Part shown: piece after piece, positions 50,961 through 63,397 of the stretch
Numbering within the stretch: the stretch's first letter is position 1
Layout of the letters: each line of letters begins with the position of its first letter
Assembly (NCBI GenBank): GCA_963693055.1
Contig: OY843751.1
Location: 3,136,001 to 3,200,000, forward strand
DNA length: 64,000 nt
Direction: 5' to 3'
Source of the DNA: a bacterium
GTDB lineage: Bacteria; Zhuqueibacterota; Zhuqueibacteria; Residuimicrobiales; Krinioviventaceae
The notes under the pieces: model-generated
The model's database searches: none
What the model was told of the DNA's origin: nothing
The model's input: the letters and a program-made list of their open reading frames with translations, nothing else
Translations under genes and position numbers: made by a program

Positions 50961-50987
50961 ATATCGGCAGAAATTATAAAAACTTAA
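50961..50987 (-). promoter_or_regulatory. Candidate sigma28 promoter
   Basis: TTAAGTTT-N11-GCCGATAT overlapping the cheB stop. Confidence 0.6.
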
Positions 50988-52036
50988 ACTTCTTTTTGCA
51001 AATGTTCAATTAAAGCTGAAGCACATTGATCAAGGGGAATAATTTTATCAACTGCACCCATTTTAATAGCTTCTTTTGGCATACCAAAAACAACACAGCT
51101 TTTTTCATCCTGGGCAAAGGTATAAGCGCCATTATCATGCATTGCCTGTAAGCCTTTAGCTCCATCTGCCCCCATCCCGGTAAGAATCATTCCAAGGGCA
51201 TTAGAGCCGGCATTTCGGGCAACAGAATGGAATAAAACATCTACACTGGGACGCTGATGATGTACGGGAGGACCATCTTTTAAAGAAACATAATATTTTG
51301 CGCCGCTTCTTTGTAACAGCATATGACTGTTACCCGGAGCAACCAATACCATTCCAGGAACAACATAATCATTATCCCGGGCTTCTCGTACTTCGAGTTC
51401 ACAGATACTGTTTAATCTGGCAGCAAAAGATGCTGTAAACACTTCAGGCATATGTTGTACAATAACAATACCCGGCATTACTGATGGCAAATTCTGTAAT
51501 ACAACCTCAACAGCTTTGGTTCCACCAGTTGAAGCACCAATAGCAATTACTTTGTGGGTTGTTTTAAGTTCAAATGATTTGGATTTTGATGCAGCAACGG
51601 CAGGCGATTGAACTGTAGCTGTTTTATCCTTTGGTAAAGACACTTTAGTATTAGCAGCAGCAGCTGTTCTAACTGCACGCACCATTCTATTTATATCAGG
51701 TGTAGAAAAGCCTGAACCTGGTTTGCTGACAACATCAATAGCACCAAGTTCAAGTGCTCGGAGGGCAGTTTCGCTATTTTCAGGTGTTAATGAGCTAACA
51801 ATAACCACCGGCATGGGATAATGTTTCATCAATTTCTCCAGAAATGACAAACCATCCATTCGTGGCATTTCTATATCAAGAGTTAACACATCAGGCTGCA
51901 GTTTAACAATTTTCTCCCGCGCCATATATGGATCAGTTGCAGAACCTACAACATCAAAATCATCAATTTTACTTAATTCTTCGGATAATATTTTTCGAAC
52001 CAAAGCCGAATCATCTACAACTAGTATTTTAATCAC
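50984..52036 (-). CDS. cheB: Chemotaxis methylesterase CheB
   Basis: Receiver + 'IGASTGG', 'VQHMP', 'RPSVD', 'LTGMGADGA'. Confidence 0.97.
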   Translation of the reverse strand: MIKILVVDDSALVRKILSEELSKIDDFDVVGSATDPYMAREKIVKLQPDVLTLDIEMPRMDGLSFLEKLMKHYPMPVVIVSSLTPENSETALRALELGAIDVVSKPGSGFSTPDINRMVRAVRTAAAANTKVSLPKDKTATVQSPAVAASKSKSFELKTTHKVIAIGASTGGTKAVEVVLQNLPSVMPGIVIVQHMPEVFTASFAARLNSICELEVREARDNDYVVPGMVLVAPGNSHMLLQRSGAKYYVSLKDGPPVHHQRPSVDVLFHSVARNAGSNALGMILTGMGADGAKGLQAMHDNGAYTFAQDEKSCVVFGMPKEAIKMGAVDKIIPLDQCASALIEHLQKEV

Positions 52037-52050
52037 TGCTATACCTCAAG

Positions 52051-52500
52051 TTAAATACTATTTTTATTATAATGCCAATAAACATTTACCAGCCCTTCAT
52101 CAAAGGGAATCTTGACTTTGACACGTTCATATTCACTACCAGAATAATCACTAATAAAATCATCTACAATTTCAGGGGCACTAAGGCGATATTGCTTATC
52201 CTTACCGGCCAGTTGTGGCAAGATGTTGCCACAAATCACATTAGCAACTTCTTTTAATGCGTCTAATTGTTGTTCTATTGGAATATCATCTTCAGCCAAA
52301 ATATTTTGCGCCAATACAGGTAACGCGCTATCAGGCAGCTTTATATAAAATCCACCATCAGTAAACCCGGAAAATCTTACCAGTGTCATTTTAGTACTAA
52401 CATCTGCATCTTCAGGCTCATCCGGAACGGGCATAAAAAAAGCCAATTCTTCAAAAGTTTTAACTGAAAAATCAAACAAAACCTGTTCTAACTTATCCAT
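52051..52500 (-). CDS. cheX: CheX-like phosphatase
   Basis: 'DALKEVANVICGN' ExxN motif. Confidence 0.8.
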   Translation of the reverse strand: MDKLEQVLFDFSVKTFEELAFFMPVPDEPEDADVSTKMTLVRFSGFTDGGFYIKLPDSALPVLAQNILAEDDIPIEQQLDALKEVANVICGNILPQLAGKDKQYRLSAPEIVDDFISDYSGSEYERVKVKIPFDEGLVNVYWHYNKNSI

Positions 52501-52876
52501 CAATATCTCCTAATAAATCCATAACAACCTGTTCAAGTTCTTCAGGTTGGAATGGTTTATGAATAAACAACGCACCTTTACTTTTTAATATATCAATTGT
52601 TGCTTCACTACTTTCCGAAGAAATTACAACAACAGCCATATCTTCAGTATCCGGATTATTACGAATTTTGTCTATCATTACATCACCGCTCATAACCGGC
52701 ATATTAATATCTACTAAAATGAGGTCTACCCAATTGTCATCTATAATATTAAGCCCTTCTTGCCCATTACTTGCTTCAAAAATGTTACGAATCGGGATGT
52801 CGCAAATGTTCAAAACGCGCTTTATCATTGCCCGCATTACTGAACTATCATCCACTATCAAAACATTCAACGACAT
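52493..52876 (-). CDS. cheY: CheY-like response regulator
   Basis: 'IVDDS', 'VDINMP', 'HKPF'. Confidence 0.85.
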   Translation of the reverse strand: MSLNVLIVDDSSVMRAMIKRVLNICDIPIRNIFEASNGQEGLNIIDDNWVDLILVDINMPVMSGDVMIDKIRNNPDTEDMAVVVISSESSEATIDILKSKGALFIHKPFQPEELEQVVMDLLGDIDG

Positions 52877-52895
52877 TTATATACCTCCATTGGTA

Positions 52896-53378
52896 TTACA
52901 ATTCTTTATCTACACCTTGAGATTTTACAATCACACTTCCAGTATTGATATCTATTGAAATATTTCTGGTAATATTTGAACCAACATCAAAAGATTTTAA
53001 CATGATTCCTTTTTTCCATAACAGCTTGCGAAACATTGTAAAGTTTCGTTTACCAATTTCAAAAATATCATTTTCACCGGGCTTTTTAAAACTCGCTCCA
53101 CCTGCAACCTTGACTACCAGTGATCTTGGATTTGCACCCAATTTCACACACTCGTTTAACATAGCTTCTACCCCGGTATCAACAAACATATAAGGGTTCT
53201 TTTTAGCTTTTTCAACATCAATTGAAGATTGCGGCAACATAACATGCAACAATGCTCCAATCTTTGTTCTGGGATCATAAACAGTGATCCCCAAACAGCT
53301 TCCAAGTGCATATGTTATTAGTGTATCAGCAGGGTCTGTTGAAATTATCATTTCAGCGATACCCACAATCCGTTTCAA
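52896..53378 (-). CDS. cheD: Chemoreceptor glutamine deamidase CheD
   Basis: 'LGSCLGI', 'LHVMLP', 'KVAGGA', 'IGKRN'. Confidence 0.95.
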   Translation of the reverse strand: MKRIVGIAEMIISTDPADTLITYALGSCLGITVYDPRTKIGALLHVMLPQSSIDVEKAKKNPYMFVDTGVEAMLNECVKLGANPRSLVVKVAGGASFKKPGENDIFEIGKRNFTMFRKLLWKKGIMLKSFDVGSNITRNISIDINTGSVIVKSQGVDKEL

Positions 53379-53397
53379 TACTTACTCCTCGGGTATT

Positions 53398-54237
53398 TCA
53401 AACACGTTTTTGATAAACCGCCGGTTGAATATAGGTAAACTTGTGCTCCGACGATGTTAAACTTTCAGAATGCCCAACAAACAAATAACCATTGTTAGCA
53501 ATTAACGAATAAAAACGATTGATTAAACGTTGACGGGTTTCTTTATCAAAATAAATCATAACATTACGACAAAAAATAATATCAAAGGGACCTTTCATTG
53601 GCCAATCTCCCATTAAATTCAAATAAGCATATTTAACAAGAGATTTAATATTGTTTTGCGCTTGGTAAACAACCTTGTCTTGATTTTTCGTTTTCGTAAA
53701 ATATTTATTCAACCTTCCCGCGGAAACTTCGGTTGCAATATTTTCACTAAATTGGCCCAACTTGGCAATTTCCAACATTTCATTAGAAATATCAGTCGCC
53801 AATATTTTGAAATCACGCTTTGCAATATCCGGGAATTCATCATGAAGAACCATTGAGATAGTATAAGGTTCAGCTCCCGATGAACAACCCGCACTCCATA
53901 TTCGCATCGCTTTATTATTATTTTTAAATTCGGGCAAAAAAGTATTTGTCATATAATCAAAATGCTGTTGCTCACGAAAAAAATTGGTTTTATTAGTTGT
54001 AATGATATCTATCATTTGTTCTAATTCTTTAGAATTTGCTTCCTCTGAAACAAAATCAATATAACTTTCAAACGAATCTAAATTTAACAAACGTAAGCGT
54101 TTGAGCAATCGTGACTTTACGAGTCCCAATTTATTAGGCGGTAAATAAATTCCAGCAATATCATAAACAATTTTACTTATACGCTCAAACGAAGAACGTT
54201 TTAAATCAAGTGACAATAAATCTAATGCCATATTCAA
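53398..54237 (-). CDS. cheR: Chemotaxis methyltransferase CheR
   Basis: 'TTNKTNFFRE', 'IWSAGCSSG.EPY', 'IFCRNVMIYF', 'GHSE'. Confidence 0.97.
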   Translation of the reverse strand: MNMALDLLSLDLKRSSFERISKIVYDIAGIYLPPNKLGLVKSRLLKRLRLLNLDSFESYIDFVSEEANSKELEQMIDIITTNKTNFFREQQHFDYMTNTFLPEFKNNNKAMRIWSAGCSSGAEPYTISMVLHDEFPDIAKRDFKILATDISNEMLEIAKLGQFSENIATEVSAGRLNKYFTKTKNQDKVVYQAQNNIKSLVKYAYLNLMGDWPMKGPFDIIFCRNVMIYFDKETRQRLINRFYSLIANNGYLFVGHSESLTSSEHKFTYIQPAVYQKRV

Positions 54238-54259
54238 TTTCCTTTTGATACTACAAAGG

Positions 54260-54943
54260 TTACAATCGTTTTTGTGTTTCTAAGCTTATATTTTCAACCA
54301 GATTAAATAATGGACTATCTGGAGGCATTTCTTCCTTGAGTTGTTCTGCATAAACCGCAATCTTGCCCAAAGCCTCTCGCTGCTCTATAATTGCACGTTC
54401 CCACTTTTTTTGAGCTTGAAAAAAATGATCAATTTTTGCATCAATTGATTTCAAATATGGATGAAGATCAGGATCATCAAGCATATCTCGTTTCTCAATC
54501 AAGTCCAGGATTTCATTATGCAGTGTTTTATATATATTTATAGTATTTATCGGATTAATAAAACTCTTGTAATCCAATACACGTTTAATTTTCTCGCGCA
54601 AATCTTTGATTGAAAATGGTTTGTAAAAATAATCAAAAGCGCCTAATTTCATAGCTTCAATAGCTGTTTCAATAGTAGCATAACCAGTTACCATAATCAC
54701 TTCTGTATCTATTGCTTCTTTTTTCACATATCGAAGCAAATCCATACCCCCTTCCTGATTATTTTCCAATCCTGGCATGTTTTTATCAGTAACCACAATA
54801 TCATATTTATTTTCTTTAAGATATTTGATTGCATTTTGAACTGTTGCAGAACTATCAACTGTATATCCTGAATCTACAAGAATACCAGCAATTAAAGATC
54901 TGGAGTCATCTTCATCATCTACAACAAGAATTCTTATTTCCAT
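54260..54943 (-). CDS. Response regulator with helical C-terminal domain
   Basis: NtrC-type receiver ('VVDDE', 'TDKNMP', 'VTGY', 'YKPF') plus about 100 aa of helices. Confidence 0.8.
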   Translation of the reverse strand: MEIRILVVDDEDDSRSLIAGILVDSGYTVDSSATVQNAIKYLKENKYDIVVTDKNMPGLENNQEGGMDLLRYVKKEAIDTEVIMVTGYATIETAIEAMKLGAFDYFYKPFSIKDLREKIKRVLDYKSFINPINTINIYKTLHNEILDLIEKRDMLDDPDLHPYLKSIDAKIDHFFQAQKKWERAIIEQREALGKIAVYAEQLKEEMPPDSPLFNLVENISLETQKRL

Positions 54944-54983: not shown

Positions 54984-55802
54984 TCAGGCTGTTTGCACAT
55001 CAATGGTTTTATTTACATTTGACAGTATCTTTTCAATATCTAAAAGTATTTTAACACTACTGTCAACCTTTGCCATACCTAATATATAGTCTGTATCAAT
55101 ATTAGTACCAAAAGCGGGTACAGATTCAATATCATCAGCAGAAATATTTAAAACCTCTGAAACCTTGTCAACAATAATACCTTTTTCACCTAATCGGGTC
55201 TGCACTACAATTATACAGGTTTCCTGAGTAGCTTCAATTTCTTCCATTAAAAACTTTGAGCGCATATCAACAACCGATACAATTTTTCCGCGCAAATTAA
55301 TTACGCCTTTAATAAAACGTTTTGTGCGGGGTACGCGGGTTATGGGTAATAAGCCCATAATTTCTTTTACTTTGGTAATTTCTATACCATAATCTTCACC
55401 AGCTAGAACAAATGTAAGATATTTGCCTTCGAGTTCCAGGTTCTTTTTAACAGCAGAACCTTTTGCATCTTGCTTCACATCCCGGTTCTTTTGTAATAAA
55501 GCTTTTGATGCACTTTGTAAACCTGTTTCTACTTTAGGGGCAGATTTTTGATTACTTGGTTTCTCCGGTTCAGACTTAACAGCTTGTGGTTCAGGCTGTT
55601 TTGGGCTTTCGGCTTTTGGCTCCTGTTTGACAGGTTCTGTCTTGACATTAGCTTTTGATTCGGATTTGACAGGTTCTGCAGCCTTTGGCTCAACTTTTTG
55701 AGCTGGTTTACTCTCTGTTTTTTCTTCACTTGGTTTTGGATCTTGACTGCTGTCACCAATCCAGCTTAGCGGATCAGCACCTAATCTATCTTTCTTTGCC
55801 AT
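54984..55802 (-). CDS. cheW: CheW with N-terminal ParB-like peptide and disordered linker
   Basis: C-terminal CheW ('KYLTF', 'GVINLRGKIV'); N-terminus 'MAKKDRLGADPLSWI' plus P/E/K/S-rich linker. Confidence 0.85.
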   Translation of the reverse strand: MAKKDRLGADPLSWIGDSSQDPKPSEEKTESKPAQKVEPKAAEPVKSESKANVKTEPVKQEPKAESPKQPEPQAVKSEPEKPSNQKSAPKVETGLQSASKALLQKNRDVKQDAKGSAVKKNLELEGKYLTFVLAGEDYGIEITKVKEIMGLLPITRVPRTKRFIKGVINLRGKIVSVVDMRSKFLMEEIEATQETCIIVVQTRLGEKGIIVDKVSEVLNISADDIESVPAFGTNIDTDYILGMAKVDSSVKILLDIEKILSNVNKTIDVQTA

Positions 55803-55806
55803 GAAA

Positions 55807-56559
55807 TTATCCTCTGTTAATAATTTCCTCGGTTAATTTTCTATAATCTTCTGCTCCCCTGCTTTTGGGCTTGTAATCAAAAATTGACATTCCAAAACTT
55901 GGGGCTTCTGCAAGGCTTATATTTTCACGAATTACAGTATTAAACATTTTTTCACCAAAATGAGATTGTATTCGCTCTGCTACCTCATTATGAAGACGTT
56001 TACGTTTATCAAATTGAGTACAAATGATACCGGTAATATCTAATTGAGAGTTTAATCGTTTTTTTACAATTTCTACAGTTTCCAGGAGTTTTGCCAGGCC
56101 CTGCATAGGTAAAAATTCTGTTTGCAGGGTAATATATACTTGTTGAACTGTTGTTAAAGCATTTAATGTGAGTAAGCCTAACGATGGTGAACAATCAATT
56201 ATCAAATAATCATAATTTTGAAATTCTTCCAACTTTTCTTTAAGAATAAACTCTCTGCCAGGCATAGTAGAAAATTCAATATCCGCACCACTTAGACTAA
56301 GATTTGAAGGTACAATATCTAAATTCTCTCTTTGAATCAATATATCAGATAGAGGAATATCTTGTTTTAAAACATCGTATATAGTATAATCAAGATCATG
56401 GGCCATTACACCTAAAGAATAGGTCAAATTTGCCTGGGGATCAAGATCAACCAGCAATACTTTTTTTCCATACATTGCCAAGCCGGCACCAATATTTACT
56501 GCTGTTGTGGTTTTACCAACTCCACCTTTTTGATTTAATATTGCAATTGAATGCATCAA
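55807..56559 (-). CDS. parA: ParA/Soj family ATPase
   Basis: Deviant Walker A 'NQKGGVGKTT', 'DLDPQAN', 'IDCSPSLG', 'EAPSFG'. Confidence 0.92.
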   Translation of the reverse strand: MMHSIAILNQKGGVGKTTTAVNIGAGLAMYGKKVLLVDLDPQANLTYSLGVMAHDLDYTIYDVLKQDIPLSDILIQRENLDIVPSNLSLSGADIEFSTMPGREFILKEKLEEFQNYDYLIIDCSPSLGLLTLNALTTVQQVYITLQTEFLPMQGLAKLLETVEIVKKRLNSQLDITGIICTQFDKRKRLHNEVAERIQSHFGEKMFNTVIRENISLAEAPSFGMSIFDYKPKSRGAEDYRKLTEEIINRG

Positions 56560-56577: not shown

Positions 56578-58338
56578 TTAAAACTCTTTCAAAGTGCTTT
56601 CGTCAGTTCCATTTTGGGATCTTGGTAAATCTTCATCAAATGGAATAAGATTTTTGGGATCATCTTCATCTACTGATTTAACTTTTTTTCTATTATTATT
56701 GGAAAAGGATGATTGATCTATAAAAAAATCATCTCTATCAATTCTTGAACTTGAATCACTAAAAACTTTAGAGTTTTGTGAGGTCAAATTAAACTGTTCA
56801 ACCATACTTTTAATCTCTTCAGTCTGGCTGGACAACTCTTCAGCAGTACTTGCAGATTCTTCAGAATTGGCAGCATTTTGCTGGGTTAATTGGTTCATTT
56901 GTTCAACTGCCGTTGCTATTTGACCAATACCTTCATTTTGTTGGTCAGAAGCTATTGTAATTTCTGCCATAACTTCATTTACTTTATTAACGCTTTCATG
57001 AATTTCATGCAAACTGGTTAATACGTTATCATTCAGTTGAACACCTTGTTCTGCACTCTTGACAGAATCTTCAATCATCATAGCTGTATTTTTTGCAGCT
57101 TCGGCACTATGCATGGCAAGATTTCTTACCTCTTCGGCAACTACTGCAAAACCTTTACCTGCCTCGCCTGCTCTTGCAGCTTCAACCGCAGCATTTAAAG
57201 CTAAAAGGTTCGTTTGAAATGCAATTTCATCTATGGTTTTAATAATTTTAAAGGTTTCATCAGACTTTGACTTGATCATTGTCATAGCATTTGTTAAATC
57301 GTTCATACCAGACATTCCATTAGAAGTACTTGTCTGAGCGTTTTCGGTTAAACTTTTGGCTTCTTTGGCGTTTGCCGTATTCTGATTAGTCATTGACTTC
57401 ATTTCCTGCAAATTACTGGAAACTTCCTCAAGAGAACTTGCCTGTTCTGATGCACCTTGCGCAATTACCTGACTACCCGTACTGATTTGAGTAGTTGCGT
57501 TTGCAATTTGCTGCACACCTAATGAAACCTGTCCCAAGCCATCATCAAGGTTATTCAAAGCTTTATTTAAAGATTCTTTGATGGCAGCAAAATCACCACT
57601 ATAATCACCATCCATACGAATACTAAGATCTTGTTCTGCAACTTTTTGCAAAATATTGGATGCCTTTATTACCGGTTCAGAAATAGCATTTAAAAGACCA
57701 TTTATACCTTTAACAATCTCTTGAAATTGTCCGTTGTGCTGCAATTCATCAGCTCTGGCGCTCAAATTACCTTTTTGACCCTCATTTAACAGAATCTTTA
57801 TTTCATCAACCAGCTTCTGGATATTTATTTTCAATTGTTGCATGGAAATACCCAAATAATCATTTTCAGATAAAATATGCGTATCAACCTGCAGATTCCC
57901 TGCTGATAGCTGTTTGGCAATATTTTCTTTTGCACTCAGCGTTTCACTGATAACATTGAAAACTTGAGCAAGGTCACCCAATTCATCATTACCCGATTTT
58001 TCAAATGTAACATTAAAATCGCCTTTGGATATTTTCTCAGCTTTGCTCAACAAATTTGTTACAGGAAACACAAAGCTACGAACCATCAACAACATTGTAA
58101 GAACCACAACAGCTATACCCAAACCAAATGAAAGGATATAACTTGTAACATGCATTGATCTTGTGATACCAAAGAAATATGAATCTACAGCAACAATGGC
58201 TATAGCACTAAAAAGAAATATGAACAATTTAAAGATTAAACTATTCTTCCAGATAATACGGCTGGCGATTGCCAAACTTGTCCATGATATTACTACAAGT
58301 AAAACATGAATCAAAACAGGTTTAAAAAAAGATTCCAA
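56578..58338 (-). CDS. Methyl-accepting chemotaxis protein (3 TM, HAMP array, C-terminal tail)
   Basis: Hairpin '[37 protein letters not shown]'. Confidence 0.95.
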
Positions 58339-58357: not shown

Positions 58358-58837
58358 TTAGGCAATTAATTGTTCAACATTTGACATTAAAGCATCAATT
58401 TCCTGAGTAATCACATTTTCAATATCGAGAAGTATTGTAACTCTGTGCTGCATTTTTCCTAAAGCAAGAATAAAATCTGTATTAAGCGCGGTTCCAAAAT
58501 CGGGTGTACTTTCAATATTTTCATCGTGAATATCAATTACTTCTTTAACCTGATCAACCAAAAGTCCCATTCTAACTTTGGACGTTTGAATGATTATGAT
58601 AACGGATTCTTCATCAACAGGTTTAGTAGATATGCCAAAACGACTACGGAGATCCATTATAGGAATTACCTGATCACGCAAATTAATCAAACCCAGAATA
58701 AAATCCGGTGTTTGCGGTATTTCACGTATCTCCATATATTTGATGATTTCAACAATTTTTAATATTTCTATACCATATTCTTCTTTTTCGATTTGAAAAG
58801 TTAAATATTTTCCGCTTAAAGATTCTTTATTTTCCAT
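58358..58837 (-). CDS. cheW: Chemotaxis adaptor CheW
   Basis: 'KYLTF', 'GLINLRDQVIP', 'GLLVDQV'. Confidence 0.93.
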   Translation of the reverse strand: MENKESLSGKYLTFQIEKEEYGIEILKIVEIIKYMEIREIPQTPDFILGLINLRDQVIPIMDLRSRFGISTKPVDEESVIIIIQTSKVRMGLLVDQVKEVIDIHDENIESTPDFGTALNTDFILALGKMQHRVTILLDIENVITQEIDALMSNVEQLIA

Positions 58838-58980: not shown

Positions 58981-60819
58981 TCATTGTGGTGTTAATTTAA
59001 ATTTTTCAATCATATTACGCATATCGGCAGATTGACTTGCCAATTCTTCAGCAGAGCTTGCAGACTCTTCAGAATTAGCCGCTGTTTGTTGCGTAACCTG
59101 GTTCATCTGTTCAACCGCAGAGTTTACCTGATCAATGCCCTGGTTCTGTTCATTAGATGCAGCAGCAATTTCTGCCATCACTTCACCAACCTTGATCACC
59201 CGTTCATTGATTTCCATCAAATTACTAAGTACTTTTTCATTCAGTTCTACACCACTATTGGCATTTTTAACAGATTCTTCAATCAAATTAGAAGTATCTT
59301 TGGCTGCTTCAGCACTTCGCATTGCCAAATTTCTAACTTCTTCAGCAACTACCGCAAAGCCTTTACCTGCTTCACCGGCTCGAGCCGCTTCTACTGCAGC
59401 ATTTAAGGCCAGCAAATTGGTTTGGAAAGCAATTTCGTCAATTGTTTGAACAATTTTAGACGTTTCATCTGACGAATCTTTAATCTTTTCAATGGCAATT
59501 GACAAATCATTCATACTGTCAACACCAGTTGATGTACTATCCTGTGCACTTTGGGCAAGATTTTTTGCTTCATTTGCATTGGCAGTAGTCCGACTAATGC
59601 TGGATGACATTTCCTGTAAACTGCTTGATACTTCTTCTAGAGAACTTGCCTGATCTGAAGCGCCATTAGCAACAGATTGACTGCCATTGCTAATTTCACG
59701 CGATGCTACGGAAACCTGACCTACCATATTTGCAACTTTACCAAGACTGTCATCAAGATGATCAAGCGCAACATTCAGGGTGTTTATTATTTCGGCATGC
59801 TTTCCTTTAAAATCACCTTTAACACGAACACAAAGGTCATGGTTTGCTACCTGGTTCAATACTTTAACCAATTCATTAATAGGACCTAATAATGCATCAA
59901 GGGTATCATTAAAGCCATGGATAATTTTTGCAAAATCACCACCATGTTTACTTGCATCAGCACGATAATCAAGATCGCCACGAACAGCAGCATCTGCAAG
60001 TGTATTGGCATCGCTGACAACCGCTTGCACGCTGGCTTTCATTGTGTTCATGGCAATACCCAATGTATCATCGTCCGATAATACATGTACATCAACATTG
60101 AGATTACCTTGTGAAATCTGATATGCAACATCAGCCCGTTGTTTCTGAGACGAGATCATTTCTGAAAAAGAATCTGCCAATTCACCAATTTCATCACTTC
60201 GATTGATGTTAATTTCTGTGTCCAACTTGCCCAAGGCAAATTCCTTGGCAATTTTGGTAATTTTTTTAATTGGATTCACTATCATATTAGAAACAATGAT
60301 TGTAATTGCTACAAATATAGCAATCATAATAATTGCTAAAATAATTGTTGTTCCCTGAGCAGCTGCCAAAGCCTTATTTCGTTCCTCAAGATGAATACCA
60401 ATTGTCATTTTACCCAATTCAGAACCTTCTTCACCAACTGCACGTTGATAAAAGATTTCATTCTTTATTTTTTTCAGTCCTTCTTCTGTCTTGTCTGTAA
60501 TTTCAGGTACACCTTCATCTCGATATTCAAAAATTTCTGTTCCTGCTTTATTCGAAACTGAAACATAAGAAATATTTTTTTGAGCGGTAAACGCTGTCAT
60601 TGAATTTCCTACTTCATCAGCATCATCAAATTCTAAACCCAAAGTAACTGCTTCACTGGCGATATCAGTCATCACTTGAAGTGATGATTTCAAATTTTTG
60701 TCTAATGCAGTTTTGGTAATATTTGAATTAATAAAAATAACTCCCAGCATCAATACAATAATCGTCGCTATAAAGTACACCATCATCTTTGACCGTAATC
60801 CAAGAGCATTTAAATTCAT
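58981..60819 (-). CDS. Methyl-accepting chemotaxis protein (2 TM, small periplasmic sensor, HAMP array)
   Basis: Same hairpin motif; start trimmed to ATG 60819 behind a GGAGG RBS. Confidence 0.95.
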
Positions 60820-60853: not shown

Positions 60854-63397
60854 TTATTCCTGCAATATTTTTGTATTAACAACCTTTGTGTCAACTTCAC
60901 GCGCAAGAGTAGTCAATTCAGATGTATCAAGAATCAACCCAACTTGTCCATCACCTAAAATTGCACCTCCTGAAATTCCTTTACTTCCGCCCATTTCTTC
61001 ACCCAAAGACTTTGTAACTACCTGCTGTTGACCCAATAGTTGATCAACCAACAAGGCACAACGTCTATCACCATCACCAACAATAACCAACAAGCCTTCT
61101 GTTGGATCGTGTATAGCATCAGGTATATCAAACAAATTATATAATCGGAAAATAGGAATAAGTTCATCCTGGAACATTACCATTTCCCCTTTTTCCGCAA
61201 CTGTAAAAATAGCATCTTTTGCGGGTCTAAAACTCATATGAATATTAATTATAGGCACAATATATCTTTCAACACCAATCTTTACAAGCATGCCGTCAAT
61301 TATTGCAATGGTTAATGGGAATATCATTGTAAATGTTGTGCTTTTTCCCTGAATGGTATCAATGTCAATTCTTCCACGTAATTCTTCAATATTCTTTTTT
61401 ACGACATCAAGGCCTACACCCCGACCAGAAACATTAGTAATCTTTTCTGCAGTAGAAAAACCAGGTGCAAATATCAGGTTATAAACATCGCTTTCAGTCA
61501 AGTTTTTATCATTTTCAATAATACCTTTTTCAATAGCTTTGTTTAAAATTTTAACGCGATCAAGACCTCGGCCATCATCCTGGATCCTGATCATAACATT
61601 ACCACCTGAATGGAATGCAGACATAACAAGCGTACCCACACGAGATTTTCCCAGGTTTTCTCTTTCATCTGCATGTTCAATACCATGATCAACAGCGTTT
61701 CTGATCATATGAACCAACGGATCTTTGATCAGCTCAACCATTTTACGATCAATTTCTGTATCTTCTCCCTGTATTACAAGATTAACTTTTTTCCCGGTTT
61801 TTGTAGCAGTATCTCTTACAAGACGAGACATTTTTTGAAATGTACCAGCCAGAGGAATCATACGCATAGACATACTAAGATCTTGAAGGTCTCTTACAAT
61901 TTTTCCAGCATGAATGACTTTGCGTGTAAATTCGGCTTGCTTTTCGTCTATAACAATTTCATCTTGTGAAATCATGGAATGTGCAATGACCAATTCTCCA
62001 ATCATTTCAATCAAACCATCCAACCGCTCAGTTCGCACCCGAACAAAATTATCTTTGGCTGTTGAAGTTGAAGCCGTATCTTGAATTGGGGTTGGCAATT
62101 CAACTTTGGGTGGAGCTCCATTACTCTTTGGTGTTGCCGCAACTGGTGCAGCAGCGTTTGGAGTTGCCTGAACTTTTTCCGGACCGGCTGAAGGTGACGC
62201 AGCTTCAACTTTGGGTTGTGGCTGAGCAGCAGGCGCTTCTTCACTATCAGATGCCTTAGCATTCGCCAATTCATCTAAAAGCTCATCATACCCCTGAGGC
62301 TTGACTAGTGGATTACCATCAAGGGCCATCTCAACCGATTGTACCAATATTTTAACCATATCTATACCACGTAAAGAAAGGTCTGCATTAGCACCGGTAC
62401 AGGCAATTTCTCCATCACGAATTCTGCTAAAAAAAGATTCCGCAACATGTGCAAAATGTGATGAAAGTTCAAGCTGCAAAAATCCTGAAGTGCCTTTGAT
62501 TGTATGAAAAGCCCGAAACACAATATTTATGGCTTCAGAATCATGCGGATTATTTTCAAGCTGCAACAATGCGGATTCAGCATCTTCAAGATATTCATTT
62601 GATTCAGCAATGAATTCATTTATAATATCGCTATCAAAATCACTTGGTAATTCATATACTTGTTGTGTAACCATTTCTTGCTCGGTAGATTGTTCTTTTT
62701 GTGATGTTTTCTTTTTCTTTGTTGGCTGTACTTCTTCCAATACTTCAAGTGTATTACCTAGCAAATCATTTATTTCTATCAATTCTTCATCAGTTGTTTC
62801 ATGCTTTCCATCAAGCATTAAATCTAATTTTCCCAGTACAGCATTAATATCTATTGTTACCTGTTCAGGAACAGAAGAATCTTCTTTTACTTTGACCAAC
62901 GATTCATGAATATTTTCAAACTCTTTACGATCATTGGGTCCTAGTTGCATTAGTAATGCTGCAACATCATTCAAAATCATTTCTGAAGTTTGATTGCTGA
63001 GTAACTTTTCAGTTTCAGATAAATAAGGTGAATGCTCAGGATTACGGCCTAAGACAATCCATAATTCATGACCTGATTGAAAGATAGAATTTTTAATTTT
63101 TTCTTCATCATCCGAATCCAAAGCCTTAGCAATTGCGTGTATTGAAGAACCTGCTTTCGTTTTAAATGCATCAGGATCTTTATGCTCATTATTATATAAA
63201 TCTTGCAACCCTTCAAGACACATGAGAAAAATTGCAATCAATTCAACAAAATCATCAGGAATTTGAGATTTTATTGTTTCAAGCTCCATTCCAACAGTAA
63301 CAATATCCTGCTGGTTTCCTGGATCAATACTTTCAAGTTGATCAGCATATTTGGAAATATCACTAACTAATTTTTCATCAAGCCGTACAATATCCAA
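60854..63397 (-). CDS. cheA: Chemotaxis histidine kinase CheA
   Basis: Hpt 'FRAFHTIKG', '[10 protein letters not shown]', 'DDGRG', '[10 protein letters not shown]', C-terminal CheW domain. Confidence 0.97.

What the first reader, a model, noticed from the sequence alone, without database searches (positions are those of the whole stretch)
54984..56559. ParA + CheW fused to a ParB-like activating peptide: a self-contained chemoreceptor-array positioning module
Seen: parA lies 4 nt upstream of a CheW that begins 'MAKKDRLGADPLSWIG', followed by about 105 aa of disordered linker. A normal CheW is also present at 58358. Known: ParB/Spo0J N-termini (K/R-xLGxGLxAL) stimulate ParA, and Vibrio ParC/ParP and Rhodobacter PpfA/TlpT position chemosensory arrays. 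Inference: an adaptor built into the array through a near-canonical CheW that recruits a Soj-like ATPase, possibly an independent solution to array segregation.
Basis: partly seen in the sequence, partly recalled or inferred. Interest (0 to 1): 0.72.

Follow-up and report, generated by a model that had tools for sequence, protein, structure and literature searches.

The report
Plasmid partition tag grafted onto CheW
A chemotaxis operon carries a ParA-type ATPase followed by an ordinary CheW adaptor that has a short N-terminal tag otherwise found mostly on plasmid-type DNA-partition proteins, so a plasmid segregation kit was likely re-used to position the cell's chemoreceptor array.

Summary
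parA (55807-56556) lies 4 nt before a 272-aa protein made of an 18-residue tag, a disordered linker of about 105 aa and a canonical CheW. The tag is under purifying selection. In 167 phylum genomes it occurs in exactly 5, always just after this ParA type.

The layout is that of Vibrio/Pseudomonas ParC/ParP, but the parts differ. The ATPase is 29-35% identical to ParC and 51-64% to ParAs whose partners carry the same tag on a ribbon-helix-helix domain, often beside plasmid Rep or recombinase genes. The adaptor groups with plain CheW, not with ParP. Among 104 tag-profile hits, 36 end in RHH, 11 in CheW and 3 in STAS.

Best reading: a plasmid-type ParA-plus-tag cassette whose DNA-binding domain was swapped for CheW, likely positioning the array. 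Binding was not modelled (tool unavailable).

The scan noted similar ParA-plus-tagged-adaptor pairs in other genomes; I did not check whether they share this tag. New variant of a known kind.

The parts
55807..56556 (-). ParA-type ATPase, 249 aa (an in-frame TTG at 56559 would add one residue); deviant Walker A intact; member of a plasmid-associated 'tag-partner' ParA clade
55810..55815 (-). Shine-Dalgarno-like AGAGGA within the last parA codons, 7 nt before the cheW ATG (translational coupling inferred)
55749..55802 (-). N-terminal tag, residues 1-18 (family consensus MxKKxRLGSDPLxWIxD[ST]R), predicted ParA-docking peptide
55425..55748 (-). Disordered Pro/Lys/Glu-rich linker, residues 19-126; 105-157 aa and variable in homologs
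55017..55424 (-). Canonical CheW domain, residues 127-262 (NLRG motif kept)
54984..55802 (-). Whole tagged CheW gene, 272 aa
58358..58837 (-). Plain CheW of the same operon (no tag)
56578..58338 (-). Transmembrane chemoreceptor directly upstream of parA (presumed cargo)
58981..60819 (-). Transmembrane chemoreceptor (CHASE8-like sensor, below Pfam cut-off; HAMP; MCP signal) (presumed cargo)
60854..63397 (-). CheA of the operon (presumed cargo)
50984..54943 (-). Downstream operon genes: response regulator, cheR, cheD, cheY-like, cheX, cheB

Best explanation
The gene pair is a ParA ATPase and a tagged canonical CheW inside the flagellum-linked chemotaxis operon, and it likely positions the chemoreceptor array using a kit probably taken from a plasmid-type partition cassette. 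Shown by calls: the tag is translated and conserved; it co-occurs with this ParA clade; the same tag usually sits on ribbon-helix-helix proteins beside plasmid Rep or recombinase genes; and the ParA keeps the pocket residues that bind the ParB peptide in M. xanthus. [quoted passage not shown]
For: Coupling: SD inside the parA end and synonymous-biased tag. In 167 phylum genomes the tag occurs in 5, each directly after a clade ParA in the same che operon. Five CheW-bearing relatives without the tag have best ParA matches of only 45-49% identity. Origin: of 42 metagenome loci with a clade ParA of at least 200 aa and a readable next ORF (from 117 loci), 34 have the tag and 25 have tag + RHH (many are near-copies, and the profiles were partly built from these loci). 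The RHH call rests on a 13-sequence profile whose PDB hits include 56B (1.3e-5), a CopG-family protein, omega and ParG. 9 of 15 RHH loci scanned have a Rep initiator, serine recombinase or primase-helicase within 3.5 kb. Tree: the CheW-coupled ParAs (99/98) lie inside a 100/97 group with 13 RHH-coupled ParAs, including 3 from named plasmids, with ParC outside; AU p=0.022 against joining them with ParC. Pocket: M. xanthus V116, L150, L152, L155, L187, L192 map to I94, L127, L129, L132, I164, L169, and Y81, E82, E117 map to Y61, D62, E95. The DNA-face pattern (R168, R186, K187, R211) is shared with 3 of 3 plasmid ParAs. CheW: 60-68% identical to plain CheWs over the domain against 20-24% to two ParPs; the best 9 Foldseek hits are all CheW-type entries. 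Precedent: ParP couples array integration and ATPase binding through the same layout (PMC5706961, passages).
Against: There are no experimental data on this pair. The central activating Arg/Lys of ParB is absent: Ala here, K/R in 7 of 104 hits. The residue equal to M. xanthus R238 (R238E is used there as the DNA-binding-defective ParA, my reading of the passages) is Ser215, the R235 equivalent is Glu212, and D110 is Ser88, so nucleoid binding and activation cannot be read off from Soj. Both operon receptors are transmembrane and the genome has flhF/flhG-like genes, a setting in which Vibrio uses a polar landmark, not the nucleoid (PMC11407121, passages). The AU test does not reject grouping the tagged CheWs with ParP (p=0.229, long branches). 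Of the three named plasmids, only one has a GxDP-type tag on its partner. The direction plasmid-to-chemotaxis rests on nesting in a tree whose inner forks are mostly open.
Confidence: 0.55

Rival explanations
1. Same parts and origin, but the ATPase works as a ParC-style tether. The tag binds ParA without much stimulation, and ParA links the membrane array to an unknown polar landmark near the flagellum rather than to the nucleoid.
For: The receptors are transmembrane and the operon sits inside the flagellar cluster next to flhF/flhG-like genes. The tag lacks the central Arg, and in M. xanthus R13A keeps binding but loses stimulation (PMC12462528, passages). Soj R235 and R238 equivalents are lost.
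Against: The same DNA-face pattern and the same Arg-less tag occur in RHH-coupled ParAs beside plasmid Rep genes, which by analogy with ParF/ParG should use the nucleoid and be stimulated.
Confidence: 0.22
2. The pair does not move arrays. ParA acts through the tagged CheW as an assembly or signalling regulator (array nucleation, size or kinase coupling), or it is a retained remnant of an inserted mobile cassette with little effect.
For: In H. neapolitanus loss of ParC mainly abolishes clusters (PMC10241942, passages). The distribution is narrow: 5 of 167 phylum genomes. The tag also occurs on patatin, amphi-Trp and membrane proteins whose positioning is unproven.
Against: All 4 CheW-containing relatives in the family keep the intact pair in the same operon. 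The tag and pocket are under strong constraint. GC and GC3 of parA (0.33/0.21) resemble neighbouring che genes, so it is not a recent insertion.
Confidence: 0.15
3. It is a diverged true ParC/ParP orthologue pair.
For: Identical gene order and domain layout (PMC5706961, passages). ParC branches as sister to the tag clade rather than among Soj. The AU test on the adaptor domain does not reject the grouping (p=0.229).
Against: ParA is 29-35% identical to ParC against 51-64% to RHH-coupled ParAs; AU p=0.022. The adaptor keeps NLRG (8 of 8 tagged against 0 of 4 ParP) and groups with CheW, while ParP groups with CheA-P5. The ParP N-termini have a different motif that the tag profile does not score.
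Confidence: 0.05
4. The extension is not translated; the real product is a plain CheW from a downstream start.
For: One database gene call of a relative begins at an internal Met (P0013, 174 aa); two relatives have such an internal Met.
Against: The window gene has no Met before the domain and its one GTG lacks an SD-like run. The tag has an SD, synonymous-biased conservation and homologs at protein N-termini.
Confidence: 0.03

Closest known systems
ParC/ParP of Vibrio, Pseudomonas and Halothiobacillus (PMC5706961, PMC10241942, bioRxiv 10.1101/2025.10.27.684771; passages read)
   Same: ParA-like gene directly upstream of a gene for N-terminal ATPase-binding region + long Pro-rich linker + CheW-like domain, inside a chemotaxis operon that also has a plain CheW.
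   Different: The ATPase is outside the ParC clade (29-35% identity). The adaptor domain is a canonical CheW, not the CheA-P5-like AIF domain. The N-terminal motif is unrelated by profile. The operon has CheX and CheD and no motor genes between cheB and parA.
Type Ib plasmid partition pairs (ParF/ParG of TP228, delta/omega of pSM19035)
   Same: Small ParA without an HTH plus a partner with an unstructured N-terminal ATPase-contact peptide. The nearest characterisable relatives of this ParA have exactly such tag-linker-RHH partners, which hit omega and ParG by profile (E 0.035 and 0.13, weak; best RHH hit 56B at 1.3e-5).
   Different: Here the RHH DNA-binding domain is replaced by CheW, the pair is chromosomal inside a che operon, and the tag sequence is clade-specific.
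PpfA/TlpT of Rhodobacter sphaeroides (PMC4085708, PMC11407121; passages read)
   Same: A ParA homologue in a chemotaxis locus proposed to use the nucleoid, bridged and activated by an array component.
   Different: The partner there is a chemoreceptor of a cytoplasmic cluster; here it is a CheW and both operon receptors are transmembrane. PpfA itself was not available for the tree.
Chromosomal Soj/ParA-ParB (M. xanthus, PMC12462528; passages read)
   Same: Conserved hydrophobic peptide pocket and catalytic residues; tag hydrophobics L7, W14 and I15 fall in register with ParB L11, L18 and I19.
   Different: No ParB CTPase domain; central Arg replaced by Ala-Asp-Pro; DNA-face basics rearranged; the genome has its own separate Soj-ParB pair.

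Membership tests
ParC/ParP | parA-like gene immediately upstream of the adaptor gene within a chemotaxis operon | tested here: met
ParC/ParP | Adaptor = N-terminal region + long Pro-rich linker + CheW-like domain | tested here: met
ParC/ParP | C-terminal domain in the AIF clade, nearer CheA-P5 than CheW | tested here: not met
   Groups with CheW on the far side of a 99/97 branch from ParP+P5; NLRG 8 of 8 against 0 of 4; 20-24% identity to ParP. Caveat: AU p=0.229
ParC/ParP | ATPase in the ParC clade | tested here: not met
ParC/ParP | ParP-type N-terminal motif | tested here: not met
   Tag profile scores the 4 ParPs at E 3.9 or worse
ParC/ParP | Polar landmark HubP/FimV in the genome | tested here: inconclusive
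   No match to TIGR03505 or TIGR03504, but no control genome passed either cut-off
ParC/ParP | Direct ATPase-adaptor binding and polar array localisation | not testable with these tools
   Needs experiment
Type Ib plasmid partition (ParA + RHH) | Small ParA without N-terminal HTH, deviant Walker A | tested here: met
   249 aa, K11 and K16 conserved
Type Ib plasmid partition (ParA + RHH) | Partner with RHH centromere-binding domain | tested here: not met
   The partner ends in CheW here; met in relatives
Type Ib plasmid partition (ParA + RHH) | Centromere repeats near the operon | not tested
   No repeat search was run
PpfA/TlpT | Partner is a cytoplasmic chemoreceptor | tested here: not met
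   Partner is a CheW; operon receptors have hydrophobic membrane segments
PpfA/TlpT | ATPase binds the nucleoid | tested here: inconclusive
   R209-equivalent kept, R235/R238-equivalents lost, extra basics R168, K187 and R211
Chromosomal ParABS | Partner with LG[RK]GL motif and ParB CTPase domain | tested here: not met
F8 chemosensory class (assignment by gene content is recalled) | 34H receptors (PMC9321776, passage) and F8-type CheA | not tested
   No class models on hand; only gene content (CheX twice, CheD, CheR, CheB, two CheW) was seen

The most novel reading that the evidence does not exclude
An undescribed ParA clade and its 18-residue RLGSDPLxWI tag form a portable 'address' cassette spread by plasmids. 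By repeated in-frame fusion it has been re-aimed from DNA (RHH) to protein cargo: single CheW, double CheW, STAS, amphi-Trp, patatin and membrane-anchored proteins. The window would then be a caught-in-the-act case of a plasmid partition system turned into a chemoreceptor-array segregation system, moving a membrane-bound array over the nucleoid with an activator that lacks ParB's central arginine.
Probability: 0.4. Interest if true: 0.72.

Novelty: new variant of a known kind. Interest (0 to 1): 0.52.

Why it matters
How ParA-type ATPases came to position protein cargos, and what sets partner specificity, are open questions in the reviews read (PMC11407121, passages). Here nearly the same ATPase (about 60% identical) and nearly the same tag occur once with a DNA-binding RHH and once with CheW. 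That gives a natural swap experiment and evidence that a ParC/ParP-like design arose again from a plasmid kit. The tag also offers a test of the recent ParA-activation model, because it keeps the hydrophobic register but not the central Arg. The limits are that the design is already known from ParC/ParP, that the scan has noted similar pairs elsewhere, and that I found no experimental system for the carriers.

Tried and rejected
Complex prediction of the ParA dimer + ATP/Mg + tag was not available, so there is no model of binding. Sequencing runs: no RNA holder listed. Rfam: no match in the window.

Most of the 80 loci were Soj-ParB; L037 and L040 carried the tag. It served as the outgroup set, not as a census. 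The clade motif found 0 viral contigs and a clade alignment found 1. The tag pattern gave 8 viral matches, of which 1 (L121) was a real tag-RHH gene. A phage origin is therefore not supported.

Several independent fusions of tag to single CheW: AU p=0.005 with all 15 tagged rows but p=0.069 after removing the long-branch P0291, the double-CheW rows and the F6 CheWs (14 rows), so this is not established. With more rows, G004's CheW also left the window's supported group. The 91-row ParA tree finished only as a quick tree with long-branch rows; the 38-row tree left out the FlhG, F9-type, L259, unknown-partner and untagged rows and some near-copies.

FimV/HubP searches were uninformative. Bdellovibrio ParAs were checked as a possible precedent and are not (PMC7186360, passages). 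PMC3896188 and PMC6040185 (Ringgaard 2014, 2018) are not held, so the ParP N-terminal motif is taken from four genome loci, not from those papers.

Literature searches that found no description of this tag or of a tagged canonical CheW: (listings only, except for the papers named). Subscription journals are mostly not covered and no supplements were read, so a mention in supplementary alignments cannot be excluded.

Full report
OBSERVATION. All genes of the region are on the minus strand. In order of transcription: cheX, cheA, mcp, cheW (58358-58837), mcp, parA (55807-56556), tagged cheW (54984-55802), response regulator, cheR, cheD, cheY-like, cheX, cheB, response regulator, then flagellar rod and ring genes (the flagellar names are my reading of the translations). 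Upstream of the window lie fliA-, flhG-, flhF-, flhA- and flhB-like genes (read by eye). The gap between the parA stop and the next ATG is 4 nt, with AGAGGA 7 nt before the ATG. The 272-aa product has CheW at 127-262. AlphaFold2 gives a confident CheW fold and pLDDT <50 for residues 15-119, and the best 9 Foldseek hits are CheW-type entries, ahead of CheA chains. The genome (6.5 Mb, one contig) has a separate Soj-ParB pair and a second che cluster at about 1.19 Mb with a plain CheW and no ParA match.

THE TAG IS REAL AND TIED TO THIS ParA. Nine full-length homologs keep MxKKxRLG[SA]DPLxWIxDS while their linkers diverge. Over codons 1-18, pairwise differences among five genomes are 5-10 synonymous against 0-3 non-synonymous. 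Across 167 genomes of the phylum a tag profile matches 5, and in each the gene follows a ParA 64-97% identical to the window's, in the same operon. A ParA clade motif matched 7 of the 167: these five, G052 (a clade-like ParA followed by a degenerate tag without CheW) and G158 (two mismatches, not examined). Five relatives with CheW but no tag have best ParA matches of 45-49% (G020 is only 78% complete). These genomes are kin and not independent.

WHERE THE PARTS COME FROM. The 120 best database homologs of ParA form a clade at 58-78% identity (self aside) with its own signature. Of these, 42 had a ParA of at least 200 aa, a readable next ORF and were not exact duplicates. 34 of 42 next ORFs begin with the tag, 25 of 42 end in an RHH-like domain, and none of the 42 is a CheW (many are near-copies of one lineage, and both profiles were partly built from these loci). 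Other tagged partners were amphi-Trp (L162 by Pfam; L144 by eye) and patatin (L164 by Pfam; L201 near-identical). A profile of 13 partners hits 9 PDB sequences, led by 56B (1.3e-5), a CopG-family protein, omega and ParG. Of 15 RHH-coupled loci whose flanks were scanned, 6 have a Rep initiator, and 9 have a Rep, serine recombinase or primase-helicase within 3.5 kb. The best PLSDB plasmid ParAs (55-56%) also have RHH-like partners, read by eye, and one of three has a GxDP-type start.

A tag profile run over 1.84 billion representatives gave 104 hits, 103 of them at or near the N-terminus. 36 end in RHH, 8 in one CheW, 3 in two CheW and 3 in STAS; 54 are otherwise, 28 of them under 75 aa (75 of the 104 were scanned against Pfam). 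Gene neighbourhoods of these hits were not fetched.

TREES. Four ParC/ParP loci were taken from unnamed Pseudomonadota genomes by gene order. In a 38-row tree the CheW-coupled ParAs (99/98) fall in a 100/97 group with 13 RHH-coupled, 2 amphi-Trp-coupled and 1 patatin-coupled ParA and one ParA with an unassigned partner. ParC is outside, as a long-branched sister to the tag clade, and forcing it together with the CheW-coupled ParAs is rejected at p=0.022. Identities to the window ParA: RHH-coupled 51-64%, Soj 43-48%, ParC 29-35%. For the adaptor domain, the 8 tagged CheWs group among plain CheWs, and ParP groups with CheA-P5 as published (PMC5706961, passages); the AU test does not reject the alternative (p=0.229). 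Whether single-CheW fusions arose more than once is unresolved (p=0.005 and p=0.069), though double-CheW and STAS fusions are different architectures.

MECHANISM. In M. xanthus the ParB peptide binds through L11, L15, L18 and I19 to a pocket of V116, L150, L152, L155, L187 and L192, and R13 contacts Y81, E82, D110 and E117 to trigger hydrolysis (PMC12462528, passages). Using the 8RAY alignment (offset fixed on D58, D60A and N64), all six pocket positions are hydrophobic in the window ParA and three of the four R13 contacts are kept (Y61, D62, E95; S88 for D110). The tag keeps L7, W14 and I15 in register, puts Pro at the L15 position with L12 next to it, and has Ala at the R13 position; K/R is found there in 7 of 104 hits. 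R6 is nearly invariant in the 20-row alignment and is my candidate activator (inference). On the DNA face R186 (R209) is kept, the R235 and R238 equivalents are lost throughout the clade, and R168, K187 and R211 are gained, the same pattern as in 3 of 3 plasmid ParAs. Because RHH-coupled members beside Rep genes carry the same Arg-less tag and DNA face, I infer that nucleoid binding and stimulation are kept, and I commit to a nucleoid-ratchet mechanism with the array as cargo (0.55). The main rival is a ParC-style polar tether (0.22), favoured by the transmembrane receptors and the flhF/flhG context. Some array-positioning role is about 0.8 in total.

COMPARISON. It works like ParC/ParP and has its layout, but fails the membership tests on ATPase clade, adaptor clade and N-terminal motif. 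By descent it is closest to type Ib ParA-RHH partition pairs, failing only on the RHH itself (centromere repeats were not tested). Papers were read as keyword passages only: PMC5706961, PMC10241942, PMC11407121, bioRxiv 10.1101/2025.10.27.684771, PMC9178275, PMC12462528, PMC9321776, PMC7186360, PMC4085708. Searches showed no description of this tag. Earlier notes of this scan describe comparable ParA-plus-tagged-adaptor pairs in an archaeon, Clostridium, Anaerolineae, a methanotroph, Planctomycetota and Pseudodesulfovibrio. These are unchecked AI notes, and none was returned for look-alike DNA.

VERDICT. The feature is real. It is a new variant of a known kind: a convergent ParC/ParP-like module built from a plasmid-type ParA, its portable tag and a resident CheW. 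Interest 0.52.

Noticed in passing
P0257, P0265, P0331: The same tag on 437-448 aa proteins with two CheW domains: a separate tagged adaptor architecture.
   Followed up: partly
P0294, P0320, P0348: The same tag on STAS-domain proteins.
   Followed up: no
L164:3603-4946(+), L201:4133-5476(+): Clade ParA overlapping a tagged patatin-like phospholipase (448 aa): an enzyme as possible positioned cargo.
   Followed up: partly
L144:2469-2912(-), L162:321-788(-): Clade ParA overlapping tagged amphi-Trp proteins; L144 has another amphi-Trp gene upstream.
   Followed up: partly
L040:5932-6534(+) (Ca. Brocadia), P0336, P0338: Tag + long linker + C-terminal hydrophobic helix and short coiled coil, after a ParA at the base of the clade: possibly a membrane-anchored ParA partner in anammox bacteria.
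   Followed up: no
P0337: Tag variant followed by a domain that by eye resembles a ParB/Srx-type fold; no Pfam hit at 1e-3.
   Followed up: no
L251:1372-2709(+) (G052): Clade-like ParA followed by a protein with a degenerate tag and an unknown C-terminal domain, downstream of a long repeat protein.
   Followed up: no
L003 and L004 tagged CheW, Met107/108: Two relatives have an in-frame Met just before the CheW domain (one database call starts there); a short untagged isoform is possible in them but not in the window.
   Followed up: partly
window 54260-54943(-): 227-aa response regulator with an unannotated helical C-terminal half, conserved directly after the tagged cheW in G001, G005 and G014 but not G004.
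   Followed up: no
genome C1:2614750-2616717(+): 655-aa protein beginning with a receiver-like domain and ending in a CheW domain of the same CheW group, outside both che clusters; similar proteins in G001, G004, G005 and G014.
   Followed up: no
genome C1:315076-315918(+): A NifH-like protein (read by eye from the Walker-region sequence) is present in this genome.
   Followed up: no
L257:3539-4294(-) (G190): A very divergent ParA inside a che cluster with a triple-CheW gene, followed by a CheY-like gene rather than a tagged adaptor.
   Followed up: no
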